Notes under the pieces: model-generated
The model's database searches: none
Seen by the model: only the letters and a program-made list of their open reading frames with translations
What the model was told of the DNA's origin: nothing
Virus record (IMG/VR): IMGVR_UViG_3300005512_000001
Location: 192,001 to 256,000 of that record
DNA: 64,000 bases
Reading direction: 5' to 3' (one strand)
DNA from: a virus
Lineage: Duplodnaviria; Caudoviricetes
Made by a program: the position numbers and the translations under genes
Shown: piece by piece, positions 3,189 through 61,160 of the stretch
Layout of the letters: each line of letters begins with the position of its first letter
Position numbering within the stretch: position 1 is the stretch's first letter

Positions 3189-3905
3189 ATGGCGATAGTA
3201 GGTCCGTCAGATTTACCATACATTTTGCAAGTTGATAGCGACCCAATGAAGAAATACGTATTATCTAAATTGGGTCACCCGGTGGTTGAGGTAGAAATCA
3301 CAGAAGACCAGTGGGAAACGGTCCTACGTACTACTGGCAATTTCATAGCTCATTACTTTTCAAAAGAGCAGATGTTTGCTGTTTTCTACACCACGCCTCT
3401 AGAGAACACATATGATTTACCGAATAATGCATATTGGATTCAAGAGGTGGCATGGGATCCAGTAACGACAATGATTGACCAAATATTCGGTGCGGAGAGC
3501 TTTTTATTCTGTTTTGGTCCTGGCACCAAAATTCTGCGGTCAGATGGTGAGATGATTCTTATTGATGAATGGCAAGAGGATTATAAGGCCAAAACACCAT
3601 TTGGCGACAAGAAGATTAAAATAGAAAAACATGATAAAGACCAGCAGTTGCTAGAAATTGAACATGAATATGGGAAAATTGTAGTCACGCCAAACCATCC
3701 ACTAAAGACGAGTAGTTTAGACGATATGATGGATGGATGGGTGCCTGCTGATGAATGTGTTGTTGGCTCCGATATAATGACGAGCGACGGACCATCTAAA
3801 GTTGTTAGTGTTAAAGAATTGAATGGCCCTACCAACTCTATTATTGTGCCTGGGGCACATTGTTTTTGGGCAAGTGTAGATGGACAACCTATATTGGTGA
3901 GTTAG
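3189..3905 (+). CDS. gp13: neck protein gp13-like, N-terminal part fused to a Hint/mini-intein that stops prematurely
   Basis: YVLSKLGHPVVEVEITEDQ is the gp13-family N-terminus; GAGG RBS; followed by gp14/gp15/gp18. Confidence 0.75.
   Translation: MAIVGPSDLPYILQVDSDPMKKYVLSKLGHPVVEVEITEDQWETVLRTTGNFIAHYFSKEQMFAVFYTTPLENTYDLPNNAYWIQEVAWDPVTTMIDQIFGAESFLFCFGPGTKILRSDGEMILIDEWQEDYKAKTPFGDKKIKIEKHDKDQQLLEIEHEYGKIVVTPNHPLKTSSLDDMMDGWVPADECVVGSDIMTSDGPSKVVSVKELNGPTNSIIVPGAHCFWASVDGQPILVS
3510..3902 (+). mobile_element. mini-intein/Hint domain (131 aa) lacking the terminal Asn
   Basis: Block A CFGPGTKI, block B VTPNHP, W..A, block F/G AHCFWAS..ILVS, then TAG. Confidence 0.8.
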
Positions 3906-59527: not shown

Positions 59528-59905
59528 ATGTTTGAATTTAGAATAATAGCATCGGCTTTAGCTAGGCGAACTAAAGATAGTGAATTAGACGAATCTACTG
59601 ATTTAGATATTGCTCAATCTAGCCATGCTCTGAAGGTTCTCCGGGAGATTGCTGAGGAACAGCCGGATGCAGTATTAAAAGCCCTAAAATTATATAAATA
59701 CCAACCTATAACAGAGTCTTCATCTTCCGTACATACTCGCAACCCGATATTGAAACGCAAACCCAAACGTGCTAAAAAATCTAATCGCACCAACCGCACC
59801 AACCGCACCAACCGCAACCGCACCAACCGCACCAATAGGGCGCAACGCAGATTATTACGCGGTATGACATTAAGCACAGCTTATTTTCGCAGGCATCAAC
59901 AATAA
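59528..59905 (+). CDS. hypothetical protein with basic NRT-repeat tail
   Basis: GAGG RBS. Confidence 0.55.
   Translation: MFEFRIIASALARRTKDSELDESTDLDIAQSSHALKVLREIAEEQPDAVLKALKLYKYQPITESSSSVHTRNPILKRKPKRAKKSNRTNRTNRTNRNRTNRTNRAQRRLLRGMTLSTAYFRRHQQ
59783..59839 (+). repeat. 9-bp tandem repeat AACCGCACC (NRT), about 6 imperfect units
   Basis: Direct reading. Confidence 0.9.
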
Positions 59906-59981: not shown

Positions 59982-60713
59982 ATGCCGAAGTTATGCCAAA
60001 TCATCGCCGTCGCAACTGGCCGCAAGTCCGTCGTTCAAAAAGAGGTTACCAAGCAGCATCAGATGCTGCAAAAGCCAGCACTGCTTGATGGCATTTCGCG
60101 AACTTACACGCCTTCTGATGCAGAGGGAGAGACTTTACCTGCCGAATCGAAAAAGGTTCAGTTGAATGTTAACGATGCTATAAAGGCCGCAGCCGCTGCT
60201 TGGACCAGTATTTTTGATGTGGTCGCGACTCAAGATGCGGCGAATTGTAAGGCTTCCGCAGATGTGATTGTGGGTGGTTTTACAATTATTGAGAATGTGC
60301 CTGTTACACACTTGCTGTTCCTAGAGAAGCAGCTAGTTGATATTCATACTTTCATCGATAAACTTCCGACTCTTGATGCAGCACAAGATTGGACATATGA
60401 CGAGAACAAGGGCTGTTTCAAGACTGAGCCGACTGAGCAGATTAAGACCAAGAAGCATCAAAAGCCGGTGGTTATGTATGAAGCTACGAAGGAACATCCA
60501 GCCCAGGTCCAATTGGTAGGCGAAGATATTACTGTTGGAAAATGGACTACGGTCTATTTCTCTGGTGCGATTCCGGCCGACAAGAAGCGAGCTATGTTGG
60601 AGAAGGTACAAAAGTTGCAAGATGCTGTGAAGTTTGCCCGCGAACAAGCAAATACTATAGATGTTGAAGATGTCAAAGAAGGAGAGCAAATTTTTGAGTT
60701 TATAACCGCTTAG
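59982..60713 (+). CDS. conserved-looking uncharacterised protein (recalled as DUF7873-like), upstream of the tRNA-mimic RNA
   Basis: KL.QIIAV..G.K, GISRTY.P..EGE.LP.E...VQ, VP.T.LLFLEKQL, EAT.EHPAQV, FSGAIP, AVK.ARE.AN; AGGAG RBS; family name from memory, unverified. Confidence 0.75.
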   Translation: MPKLCQIIAVATGRKSVVQKEVTKQHQMLQKPALLDGISRTYTPSDAEGETLPAESKKVQLNVNDAIKAAAAAWTSIFDVVATQDAANCKASADVIVGGFTIIENVPVTHLLFLEKQLVDIHTFIDKLPTLDAAQDWTYDENKGCFKTEPTEQIKTKKHQKPVVMYEATKEHPAQVQLVGEDITVGKWTTVYFSGAIPADKKRAMLEKVQKLQDAVKFAREQANTIDVEDVKEGEQIFEFITA

Positions 60714-60727
60714 GCGGTTTGTGATAT

Positions 60728-61160
60728 TGGAGCGTAAGTTTAAATTTAAACTTAGATTTAAACAAAACTCCTGTGCAGGTTCGAATCCTGCCCCCGCTGT
60801 TGATGCTGTAACAACCTACTTAGCGGGGTGGCGGAATGGCAGACGCGCGGCTCCCTTATCAAGGGTCGTAGGAGTTTATTAAGTTCAAGCTATCGCTCCA
60901 GGTTTAGCAACTGTGCTGGCCATTAAATCGAGTTCTGGAGAAAACTAACTGCTTGTGTGCTTGTTCAAATCAAGCCCCTCGCGTTTCGACGCACCCAACA
61001 ACCCTGCGAGGGTAGCTCAATGGTAGAGCGTGGCAGTCTAAAACTGAAACTCCAGATTAAACGGAATCGTTAATGGTTCGAGACAGGCACTGGTAGACAT
61101 TACTATAATGATCACCAACATCGCTCCCCAGCGGGAAGGCTACGCGCTGGGGAGCCACTT
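60728..61160 (+). ncRNA. structured RNA with two circularly permuted tRNA-like domains (YrlA/Y-RNA-like topology)
   Basis: Unit 1: T-arm GCAGG-TTCGAAT-CCTGC (60775-91), CCCCGCT/AGCGGGG acceptor, D-arm TGGCGGAATGGCAGACGC. Unit 2: GCTTG-TTCAAAT-CAAGC (60959-75), CCCTCGC/GCGAGGG, TAGCTCAATGGTAGAGC. Closing stems TGGAGCG/CGCTCCA and CTGGAG/CTCCAG. Confidence 0.85.
61123..61155. terminator. GC-rich hairpin closing the RNA locus
   Basis: GCTCCCCAGCG / CGCTGGGGAGC; between RNA and convergent gene. Confidence 0.7.

What the first reader, a model, noticed from the sequence alone, without database searches (positions are those of the whole stretch)
59982..61160. Candidate new ribonucleoprotein system: uncharacterised protein gene followed by a double permuted-tRNA-mimic RNA
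Seen: within 15 nt of the stop of a 243-aa gene begins a ~430-nt ORF-free region with two tRNA-like modules in permuted order. Each has a T-arm with a canonical TTCRAAT loop, then the 3' acceptor strand, a linker, the 5' acceptor strand, and a D-arm with GG. Both acceptor stems are perfect 7 bp (CCCCGCT/AGCGGGG; CCCTCGC/GCGAGGG). Both linkers are exactly 23 nt, start with GTT and contain AACAACC. There is no CCA and no conventional anticodon arm; the position is occupied by long interrupted stems (AACTCCT/AGGAGTT then TGGAGCG/CGCTCCA; ACTGC/GCAGT, CTGGAG/CTCCAG, CCATTAA/TTAATGG). The two units differ in sequence but keep the pairing, which amounts to internal covariation. Known: the T-acceptor-D order with a closed acceptor is the topology of bacterial YrlA Y RNAs, which partner Ro60/TROVE proteins; no TROVE gene is in this window. 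Inference: the upstream protein is the partner of a Ro-independent RNP displaying two tRNA elbows, perhaps as a decoy for host anticodon nucleases, tRNA sensors or T-box/RNase P-type elbow readers, or as a ribosome ligand.
Basis: partly seen in the sequence, partly recalled or inferred. Interest (0 to 1): 0.93.

Follow-up and report, generated by a model that had tools for sequence, protein, structure and literature searches.

The report
Two-headed tRNA-mimic RNA with DUF7873 gene
A phage gene of unknown function (DUF7873) is followed by a roughly 430-base folded RNA carrying two back-to-front tRNA look-alikes; the same pair occurs in hundreds of bacteria and phages and is not in the RNA-family library or papers I could search, so it is probably an undescribed RNA-protein unit related to, but independent of, the Ro60/Y-RNA system.

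Summary
Every stem, loop and 23-nt linker is at the stated coordinates. Folding gives the same architecture, and unit 2 aligns end to end with Rfam YrlA, below threshold (28.8 bits; gathering score 69).

The RNA is conserved and strand-specific, with heavy covariation: 31 of 36 pairs show double changes, and 92.7% of cells pair against about 41% in slid controls. Both units keep U8 and a covarying 15:48 Levitt pair.

It is tightly linked to DUF7873 (PF25283).
- 78 of 78 evaluable bacterial loci and 72 of 74 viral loci carry it just downstream on the same strand.
- So do five far relatives (29-34% protein identity).
- Among 151 Actinomycetes genomes, full-length RNA hits occur in exactly the 5 that carry DUF7873.

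Ro60/TROVE is missing from this 113-kb record, from 4 complete phages and from 4 of 9 bacterial carriers. Classical YrlA sits beside TROVE at other loci.

Best reading: a Ro-independent RNA-protein unit. Binding, transcription and processing are not shown. The protein fold matches nothing informative.

The decoy and ribosome ideas are untested, and the anticodon-nuclease decoy is unlikely because there is no anticodon loop.

This scan has found the same pair before on other DNA (110 notes, at least 63 genomes).

The parts
59982..60713 (+). DUF7873 protein gene (243 aa)
   Evidence: Pfam PF25283, E 4.3e-103, full length. No PHROG, PADLOC or significant NCBIfam match. AF2 mean pLDDT 87.7.
60728..61155 (+). 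Whole structured RNA: 5' domain with unit 1, linker, unit 2 module, terminal hairpin
   Evidence: MFE fold. Homologous RNAs align over this whole span, and 46 of 62 predicted pairs show compensatory changes.
60728..60734 (+). Outer stem of unit 1, 5' strand TGGAGCG (pairs with 60894-60900)
   Evidence: GAGCG/CGCTC is nearly invariant in relatives; GAGC/GCUC is about 83% paired.
60737..60772 (+). Hexamer-phased A-rich track (AAGTTT AAATTT AAACTT AGATTT AAACAA AACTCC), 5' arm of unit 1
   Evidence: Read. In relatives an A and a T are invariant every 6 nt (A18/A24/A30/A42 and T22/T28/T40 in A4; A36 nearly invariant). The pairing register is ambiguous.
60766..60876 (+). Unit 1: anticodon-stem-like AACTCCT/AGGAGTT enclosing T-arm 60775-60791, closed acceptor 60792-60828 (23-nt loop 60799-60821), D-arm 60831-60846 and an extra hairpin at about 60848-60868
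   Evidence: R1 hit 60745-60909, 32 bits. Partial Rfam YrlA hit, 13.8 bits.
60894..60900 (+). Outer stem of unit 1, 3' strand CGCTCCA, within the conserved TATCGCTCC
60920..61076 (+). Unit 2 module (YrlA-like): CCATTAA/TTAATGG, conserved internal loops ATCGAGTT (60927-60934) and ATTAAACGG (from 61056), CTGGAG/CTCCAG, ACTGC/GCAGT, T-arm 60959-60975, closed acceptor 60976-61012 (23-nt loop 60983-61005), D-arm 61015-61029
   Evidence: Rfam YrlA, full length, 28.8 bits, E 4.5e-4. R1 98 bits, but the window was one of the 26 seed rows. Covariation.
61123..61155 (+). Terminal 11-bp hairpin (GCTCCCCAGCG / CGCTGGGGAGC), probable 3' end or terminator
   Evidence: An equivalent GC-rich hairpin ends the RNA in relatives, with covariation. 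The simple terminator scan did not call it, because the loop exceeds 8 nt and the T-run is weak.

Best explanation
Positions 60728-61155 encode one conserved non-coding RNA of about 430 nt. It is probably transcribed with, or just after, the DUF7873 gene.

The RNA has two complete L-shaped tRNA bodies. In each, the acceptor stem is closed by a loop and the anticodon stem runs on as a long interrupted helix.
- Unit 2 with its basal helices is a distant YrlA-like module.
- Unit 1 sits on a track of six-nucleotide repeats.

I propose that DUF7873 is the dedicated protein partner, giving a ribonucleoprotein that works without Ro60. Likely contact sites are the sequence-conserved unpaired elements: AUCGAS and CUUAAACG around the unit 2 stem, the GAGCG/CGCUC stem, and the hexamer track.

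The two tRNA-like heads would be handles read by tRNA-recognising host factors. By analogy with M. smegmatis YrlA (7-bp acceptor, G1:C72), RNase P may cut the acceptor loops and the 3' ends may be finished to CCA. That would leave three base-paired pieces.

Shown: the RNA structure, its conservation, its linkage to the gene, and the absence of Ro60 from several carrier genomes. Inferred: binding, transcription, processing and biological role.
For: RNA conservation.
- Covariation on the unit 2 module: 92.7% of cells paired against 39-45% in slid controls; 31 of 36 pairs with double changes; 0 of 500 shuffles reach the observed values.
- On the whole RNA, 46 of 62 pairs are compensatory.
- tRNA tertiary signature in both units: U8 kept, and the 15:48 pair is A:U in 75 (unit 1) and 70 (unit 2) of 82 RNAs, G:C in 4 and 11, with 3 and 1 exceptions.

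Linkage to DUF7873.
- A full-length R1 hit lies about 200 nt downstream on the same strand in 78 of 80 bacterial loci. The other two contigs end too soon.
- 72 of 74 viral loci have it, and all 128 hits are on the gene's strand. One more has it 8.4 kb downstream.
- Five far relatives (Rhizobium, Klebsiella, Ralstonia, Vibrio [weak, E 0.0016] and Microcoleus phages, 29-34% protein identity) also have it.

Reciprocal test in 151 Actinomycetes genomes.
- DUF7873 is in 5 genomes.
- R1 hits of 114 bits or more are in exactly those 5, next to the gene.

No other conserved neighbour was seen.

Ro independence.
- No TROVE in the 113-kb record, in 4 complete phages, or in 4 of 9 bacterial carriers.
- One carrier (G085) has its own YrlA-type hit beside its TROVE gene at another locus.
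- No RtcB in these phages.

Protein.
- It is strongly constrained: 52-65% identity to the window's protein across the aligned homologues (A1), which include members of several bacterial phyla.
- The most conserved motif, EATKEHPAQ, lies between the two long strands (151-166, 175-194) of the confident model. I infer this is the tip of a beta-hairpin.

Acceptor ends look 'read'.
- G1:C72 in 73 and 80 of 90 RNAs. Discriminator A in 79 of 90 unit 1 loops and U in 71 of 90 unit 2 loops.
- NCCA is kept in loops of phages whose own tRNA genes mostly lack encoded CCA.
- Chen et al. [quoted passage not shown]
Against: - There are no data on transcripts, binding or processing.
- DUF7873 is not basic (median pI 6.4). 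It has no recognisable RNA-binding fold: Foldseek PDB and BFVD gave nothing, and the best VIA Z of 8.8 is a generic helical bundle.
- Gene order alone cannot tell a partner RNA from a 3' UTR element of the same mRNA.
- A few DUF7873 genes lack a nearby RNA. L009-L011 have only 55 nt downstream, and L009 has no hit within 6 kb. L055 has none.
- TROVE is commoner in DUF7873 genomes (3 of 5) than in the others (12 of 146) in the Actinomycetes sample. A functional tie to Ro60 in some hosts is therefore not excluded, though genome size and lineage confound this.
- Many acceptor loops are only 6-8 nt and lack CCA. Cleavage is not required by the data.
- An earlier later-check in this scan priced the binding claim at 22 in 100.
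Confidence: 0.55

Rival explanations
1. It is an ordinary, divergent YrlA-type Y RNA that works with the host's Ro60 (Rsr). The phage supplies only the RNA, and DUF7873 is an unrelated neighbour.
For: - Rfam YrlA aligns full length to unit 2 here and in Phendrix and Mimi (28.8, 37.1 and 32.9 bits).
- My unit 2 model also finds classical YrlA beside TROVE genes.
- TROVE is in 3 of 5 DUF7873 genomes against 12 of 146 others.
- Tandem Y RNAs beside Ro60 are known (PMC4201824).
Against: - All scores are far below the gathering score of 69.
- The RNA tracks DUF7873, not TROVE: 5 of 5 against 0 of 146.
- Nocardia, Streptomyces and Micromonospora carriers and G070 have no TROVE.
- G085 has a separate YrlA at its TROVE locus.
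- The Ro-binding motif GNCGAAN0-1G on the basal-stem 5' strand is absent here. That stem covaries freely instead.
Confidence: 0.1
2. The RNA is a precursor. RNase P and 3' maturation open both acceptor loops to give split, CCA-ended tRNA-like molecules. These are the active form and may even be aminoacylated. DUF7873 may or may not be involved. This can coexist with the best explanation.
For: - Perfect 7-bp acceptors with G1:C72 and conserved discriminators, A for unit 1 and U for unit 2.
- Loops read NCCA in 37 and 15 of 90 RNAs. This holds even where the phage's own tRNA genes lack CCA.
- Long loops look like a trailer hairpin plus an unstructured C/A-rich leader.
- Precedent: M. smegmatis YrlA is cut by RNase P and receives CCA in vivo (PMC4201824).
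Against: - No read data.
- Many loops are 6-8 nt without CCA, and the window itself has none.
- Acceptor pairs 2-7 vary freely, so no synthetase identity set is conserved.
- ARAGORN finds neither a tRNA nor a permuted tmRNA.
Confidence: 0.3
3. It is a cis-acting 3' UTR element of the DUF7873 mRNA, for example a stabiliser against 3' exonucleases or a processing signal, with no function of its own in trans.
For: - It begins within 15-60 nt of the stop codon.
- No sigma-70-like promoter lies between gene and RNA in the window.
- It is always on the same strand, downstream.
Against: - About 430 nt with two full tRNA folds and sequence-invariant loops is far more than stabilisation needs.
- The RNA is separated from the gene by an inserted ORF in PA-SR01 and the Microcoleus phage, and by 8.4 kb in L022.
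- A promoter is annotated between gene and RNA in Klebsiella phage FBKp24.
Confidence: 0.08
4. It is a phage decoy or sponge for host tRNA-targeting defence nucleases or tRNA sensors.
For: - It lies inside tRNA gene arrays in Gordonia, Arthrobacter and Rhizobium phages.
- The tRNA elbow and acceptor are faithfully mimicked.
Against: - There is no anticodon loop, so it cannot be a substrate of anticodon nucleases.
- The same module is chromosomal in at least 591 bacterial species, in ordinary gene neighbourhoods.
- No PADLOC hit.
Confidence: 0.07

Closest known systems
YrlA-class bacterial and phage Y RNAs with Ro60/Rsr (Rfam RF02553; Chen et al. 2014, PMC4201824)
   Same: - Order T-arm, loop-closed acceptor stem, D-arm, with the anticodon stem continuing into basal helices formed by the 5' and 3' flanks.
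- U8, G18G19, the T-loop and a covarying 15:48 pair.
- Full-length though weak alignment of unit 2 to the Rfam model.
- A 7-bp acceptor, as in the RNase P-cleaved M. smegmatis YrlA.
- More than one such RNA in tandem is known beside Ro60.
   Different: - Scores are far below the gathering threshold.
- There is no Ro60 gene nearby, or in several carrier genomes at all.
- The constant neighbour is DUF7873, whose model matches no known fold.
- Two heads sit in one ~430-nt transcript, with a hexamer-repeat domain and conserved GAGCG/CGCUC, AUCGAS and CUUAAACG elements.
- The Ro-binding GNCGAA motif is absent.
- There is no RtcB or RtcA link.
Two-piece (circularly permuted) tmRNA
   Same: The gene order is permuted: T-arm and 3' acceptor strand come before the 5' acceptor strand, joined by a segment that is removed. 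A long helix takes the place of the anticodon arm. A small dedicated protein partner (SmpB) is part of the concept.
   Different: - No match by ARAGORN or Rfam.
- Full D-stems are present, whereas tmRNA has a reduced D-arm.
- There is no G3:U70; both units have standard pairs at 3:70.
- No conserved tag reading frame, and there are two heads.
Permuted and split tRNA genes of Cyanidioschyzon and some archaea
   Same: The 3' half of the tRNA body is encoded before the 5' half.
   Different: Those genes encode true tRNAs with anticodon loops and bulge-helix-bulge motifs, processed through circular intermediates. Here there is no anticodon loop, and the anticodon stem is continuous with conserved helices.
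Large structured RNAs often found near tRNA genes in phages (GOLLD, ROOL) and protein-linked RNAs such as HEARO with IscB
   Same: A large conserved structured RNA in phages and bacteria; position in tRNA arrays; a fixed neighbouring ORF in the case of HEARO.
   Different: No Rfam match to any of them. The architecture differs, being built from two tRNA bodies. DUF7873 has no recognisable nuclease domain.

Membership tests
YrlA / bacterial Y RNA (RF02553) | Reaches the Rfam gathering score (69 bits) | tested here: not met
   Unit 2 scores 28.8 bits and unit 1 13.8 bits. No hit at gathering threshold anywhere in the window.
YrlA / bacterial Y RNA (RF02553) | tRNA-like domain in the order T-arm, closed acceptor-like stem, D-arm, with tRNA tertiary signatures | tested here: met
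   The 15:48 pair covaries and U8 is kept.
YrlA / bacterial Y RNA (RF02553) | Encoded within about 4 kb of a Ro60/TROVE gene (the criterion of Chen et al. 2014) | tested here: not met
   No TROVE in the 113-kb record, though the record is only about 31% complete. None in 4 complete phages with the module.
YrlA / bacterial Y RNA (RF02553) | Ro-binding motif GNCGAAN0-1G on the 5' strand of the basal helix | tested here: not met
   The window's basal stem is CCATTAA, followed by an unpaired ATCGAGTT. In relatives the stem covaries freely and the conserved element is AUCGAS in the internal loop. One relative (PA-SR01) does read GTCGAAG.
YrlA / bacterial Y RNA (RF02553) | Bound by Ro60 in vivo | not testable with these tools
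   Needs immunoprecipitation.
tRNA (RF00005 / ARAGORN) | Open acceptor stem with 5' and 3' ends, and an anticodon arm with a 7-nt loop | tested here: not met
   ARAGORN finds 0 genes in the window and in the whole record. The only RF00005 match is 14.8 bits, E 5.2.
Permuted tmRNA (RF04321, ARAGORN permuted mode) | Detected as tmRNA; G3:U70 alanine identity; tag reading frame | tested here: not met
   No tmRNA call. Position 3:70 is C:G in unit 1 and G:C in unit 2.
DUF7873 (PF25283) | Full-length match above the Pfam gathering score | tested here: met
   344.7 bits against a cut-off of 27; residues 1-242 of 243.
Ro60 / TROVE (PF05731), as a possible distant identity of the protein | TROVE domain or HEAT-ring plus vWA fold | tested here: inconclusive
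   Pfam finds only DUF7873. Structure searches list no Ro60, which does not exclude remote similarity. At 243 aa it is about half the length of the 532-703-aa TROVE open frames found here.

The most novel reading that the evidence does not exclude
DUF7873 and the two-headed RNA form a new, widespread ribonucleoprotein machine. After RNase P cutting and CCA maturation it would present two open, tRNA-like acceptor ends with fixed discriminators (A and U), held at a set distance on a protein-coated hexamer track. It would act on translation or tRNA metabolism, for example by recruiting or titrating tRNA-reading enzymes, or as a charged amino-acid donor. Phages with large tRNA arrays would carry their own copy to keep that function running during infection.
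Probability: 0.15. Interest if true: 0.92.

Novelty: new variant of a known kind. Interest (0 to 1): 0.8.

Why it matters
Bacterial tRNA-mimic Y RNAs are known only as partners of Ro60. Why they copy tRNA is still an open question.

Here the same design is doubled and joined to a different, highly conserved protein. It is maintained in at least 591 bacterial species and several hundred phage contigs, including cultured Gordonia, Arthrobacter, Rhizobium, Klebsiella and Ralstonia phages and many Streptomyces.

That gives tractable systems for asking what a tRNA-shaped handle does outside translation. It also adds a large structured RNA class that is missing from Rfam. It would correct annotation errors too: one unit is called a suppressor tRNA in a Klebsiella phage record.

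Tried and rejected
- Rfam at gathering threshold over the whole window: nothing.
- blastn of the RNA against 50,697 phage records: no match, so sequence alone is too diverged.
- PHROGs, PADLOC and NCBIfam for the protein: nothing useful.
- PDB sequence profile search: only noise.
- Structure searches with a confident model. Foldseek PDB and BFVD gave no hit at E <= 0.001. The wide VIA search gave a best Z of 8.8 to designed helical bundles, within the noise range stated by the tool. The ESM Atlas returned only DUF7873 itself and unnamed ~213-aa proteins at TM about 0.5.
There is therefore no expression, processing or oligomer evidence.
- Papers: no hit for DUF7873. Nothing for tRNA-like + Y RNA + Streptomyces. 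The 'permuted tRNA' + bacteriophage hits were irrelevant. Burroughs and Aravind 2016 and Sim et al. 2020 are not held, so I could not check the claim that a Ro-independent tRNA-like RNA partner was proposed there.
- Resolving the helix register of the hexamer-repeat domain failed. The CUGA hexamers can pair with several UCAG copies equally well.
- RtcB is not present in this record or in 4 carrier phages. A CCA-adding enzyme is present only in phage Mimi.
- Degenerate tRNA pseudogenes or tandem tRNA artefacts: rejected. The acceptor strands pair with each other across the loop, and covariation maintains the permuted fold.
Full report
**What is in the window.** The stretch 59982-60713 (+) encodes a 243-aa protein. 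It matches Pfam DUF7873 (PF25283) over its full length, at E 4.3e-103. It has no PHROG, PADLOC or meaningful NCBIfam match.

The first conserved RNA element starts 15 nt after the stop codon, and the RNA runs to an 11-bp hairpin at 61123-61155.
- two T-arms with TTCGAAT and TTCAAAT loops;
- two perfect 7-bp acceptor stems, each closed by a 23-nt linker that starts GTT and contains AACAACC;
- two D-arms with GG;
- no CCA;
- long interrupted closing helices.

The minimum-free-energy fold of the + strand gives the same architecture. ARAGORN finds no tRNA or tmRNA in the window or in the whole record.

Rfam has no match at gathering threshold. In a permissive search, unit 2 aligns end to end with YrlA (28.8 bits, E 4.5e-4, gathering score 69), and the core of unit 1 aligns weakly.

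The window is part of a 113-kb IMG/VR virus record judged about 31% complete, so probably a jumbo phage.

**Small corrections to the observation.**
- The region holds a 53-aa GTG frame. I take it to be spurious but did not test it.
- Unit 1 has an extra hairpin between the D-arm and the closing stem.
- The shared AACAACC is not a motif. In many relatives, long acceptor loops consist of a hairpin followed by a C/A-rich unpaired tail. The window's linkers are instances of that.

**The RNA is conserved and structured.** tblastn found the protein in 75 phage records. In Gordonia phage Phendrix, Arthrobacter phage Mimi and Pseudanabaena phage PA-SR01, the unannotated stretch after the gene holds the same two permuted units.

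A strict pattern for one unit was found as follows:
- downstream of the gene in 149 of 165 loci;
- in none of 165 reverse complements;
- in 14 of 159 upstream flanks.

An alignment of 24 full RNAs gives 62 consensus pairs, 46 of them with compensatory changes. For the unit 2 module, with a structure I specified:
- 92.7% of cells pair, against 39-45% when partners are slid;
- 31 of 36 pairs change on both sides;
- no shuffle out of 500 reaches the observed values.

Both units keep U8. Both keep a covarying 15:48 Levitt pair: A:U in 75 and 70 of 82 RNAs, G:C in 4 and 11, with 3 and 1 exceptions. They are therefore selected to fold as tRNA L-shapes.

Sequence-invariant elements outside the tRNA bodies are:
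- GAGCG/CGCUC;
- AUCGAS and CUUAAACG, facing each other across the unit 2 basal helix;
- an A and a T recurring every six nucleotides on the 5' arm of unit 1.

I could not resolve the pairing register of that hexamer domain.

**Linkage to DUF7873.** The family is large. It has more than 5,000 clusters at 90% identity and 2,302 representatives at 50%. It gave 389 confirmed IMG/VR hits and at least 591 confirmed hits in bacterial species genomes. Among the 80 listed are Streptomyces, Actinomadura, Nocardia, Pirellulaceae, Ktedonobacteria, Deinococcales, Armatimonadota and Chloroflexota.

The neighbouring protein genes differ from place to place.

With a covariance model of the unit 2 module (R1), adjacency was:

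| Set | Result |
|---|---|
| 80 bacterial loci | 78 have a full-length hit about 200 nt downstream, same strand; the other two contigs end too early |
| 74 viral loci | 72 have it; all 128 hits lie on the gene's strand |
| Viral locus L022 | RNA is 8.4 kb downstream, same strand |
| Viral locus L055 | none |
| Five far relatives, 29-34% protein identity (Rhizobium TM30, Klebsiella FBKp24, Ralstonia RSL1, Vibrio D491 [weak], Microcoleus phage) | units downstream in all five |

The reverse test used 151 evenly drawn Actinomycetes genomes. DUF7873 is present in five of them. R1 hits of 114 bits or more occur in exactly those five, each next to the gene.

The window was one of the 26 seed rows of R1, so its own 98-bit score is not independent. 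The hits in non-seed loci are.

**Relation to Ro60.**
- No TROVE domain is encoded in the 113-kb record or in four complete phage genomes that carry the module.
- Of nine bacterial carriers tested, four have none: Nocardia, Streptomyces, Micromonospora and G070.
- In the same 151 genomes, the weak, core-only R1 hits (40-55 bits) lie beside TROVE genes. These are classical YrlA RNAs. One carrier (G085) has such a YrlA at its TROVE locus as well as the DUF7873 RNA elsewhere.
- The Ro-binding motif described by Chen et al. 2014 (GNCGAAN0-1G on the basal-stem 5' strand, figure legend quoted) is not conserved here. That stem covaries freely.
- RtcB is absent from these phages.

So the RNA shares its design, and perhaps its ancestry, with YrlA, but it follows a different gene.

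One caution: TROVE is more frequent among DUF7873 genomes (3 of 5) than among the rest (12 of 146). Genome size and lineage could explain this. I did not correct for them.

**The protein.** AlphaFold2 gives a confident model (mean pLDDT 87.7). It has four long helices with inserted strands, including two very long strands (151-166 and 175-194). The most conserved motif, EATKEHPAQ, lies between those two strands, which I read as the tip of a beta-hairpin.

No structure library gave an informative match. The family is near neutral (median pI 6.4), so charge gives no support for RNA binding. A function cannot be read from the fold.

**The acceptor ends.** Across 90 RNAs:
- pair 1:72 is G:C in 73 and 80;
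- the base after the 3' acceptor strand is A in 79 unit 1 loops and U in 71 unit 2 loops;
- NCCA is encoded in 37 and 15 loops.

In several phages whose own tRNA genes mostly lack an encoded CCA, the mimic loops still read ACCA or TCCA (the CCA test there is crude).

Chen et al. 2014 showed that M. smegmatis YrlA is cut by RNase P and receives CCA in vivo. It is the one YrlA they studied with a 7-bp acceptor stem. Cutting of both loops here is therefore plausible, but nothing in my data shows it. The window's own loops have no CCA.

**Verdict.** That idea is a Ro-independent unit of the upstream protein and a double tRNA mimic.

The functional guesses are untested.
- A decoy for anticodon nucleases is unlikely without an anticodon loop.
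- A purely anti-defence role fits poorly with the wide chromosomal distribution in bacteria.

I file it as a new variant of a known kind: YrlA-like tRNA-mimic RNA with a new partner and a two-headed architecture. It fails the YrlA membership tests on score, on Ro60 neighbourhood and on the Ro-binding motif.

I found no description in Rfam 15 or in the paper library.

This scan has met the same pair before on other DNA: 110 notes in at least 63 genomes.

The pieces I tested here myself are the reciprocal census, the far-relative test, the 78/78 and 72/74 adjacency counts, the Levitt-pair covariation, the loop anatomy and the CCA comparison.

Noticed in passing
L174 3518-3597 (Klebsiella phage vB_KpM_FBKp24, NC_061421.1): The record annotates 'tRNA-OTHER / tRNA-Sup-TTA' here. 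The call overlaps the R1 hit at 3551-3669 (E 1.4e-7; a second unit lies at 3370-3431), so it is probably a miscall of a permuted tRNA-mimic unit. The record also annotates a promoter between the DUF7873 stop and the RNA.
   Followed up: partly
L002 2072-2600 (Gordonia phage Phendrix): A tmRNA (RF00023, 89 bits) lies between tRNA-Asn and tRNA-Arg. It is not in the record's feature table. It sits in the same tRNA array as the DUF7873 module.
   Followed up: no
L004 4776-5250 and L004 6763-6942 (Pseudanabaena phage PA-SR01); L176 3684-4961 (Microcoleus phage): An extra ORF-sized stretch is inserted between the DUF7873 gene and its RNA in both cyanophages. PA-SR01 also has a sub-threshold permuted-tmRNA match (RF04321, 31.9 bits) 1.2 kb further on.
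   Followed up: no
window 60737-60772, 60870-60915, 61038-61076: A-rich six-nucleotide phasing in the arms around both units. In GC-rich relatives it reads RAGCTG on the 5' arm and TCAGNN on the 3' arm. These can pair in several registers, so the region could be a slippery helix or a repeated protein-binding register.
   Followed up: partly
Actinobacterial loci, e.g. L007 6760-6785 and L127 3235-3262: A GC-rich hairpin directly after the stop codon shows a second copy of GGAGCG in its loop. This is the same word as the 5' strand of the unit 1 outer stem, so it is a possible alternative pairing with CGCUCC.
   Followed up: no
G085, G033, G119 (Actinomycetes genomes): Three of five DUF7873 carriers also have a TROVE gene at a different locus, against 12 of 146 non-carriers. 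The enrichment may reflect large genomes or lineage.
   Followed up: partly
L114 4250-4407 and 4815-4964 (Ktedonobacterales MAG): Two full-length unit 2 modules (91 and 94 bits) lie downstream of one DUF7873 gene, further from the gene than usual. This may be a duplicated RNA.
   Followed up: no
L009-L011 (GCA_037025425 and relatives): The DUF7873 gene has only 55 nt before a convergent cytochrome bd operon, and no RNA hit lies within 6 kb (checked on L009). This lineage has the RNA either missing or elsewhere. The genome was not held for a search.
   Followed up: partly
window 59800-59835: A short tandem repeat (CAACCGCAC / CAACCG units) lies inside the 125-aa ORF 59528-59905, just upstream of the DUF7873 gene.
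   Followed up: no
whole record G000 (113 kb): No tRNA gene at all in 113 kb of a probable jumbo phage, although cultured relatives place the DUF7873 module inside large tRNA arrays.
   Followed up: partly
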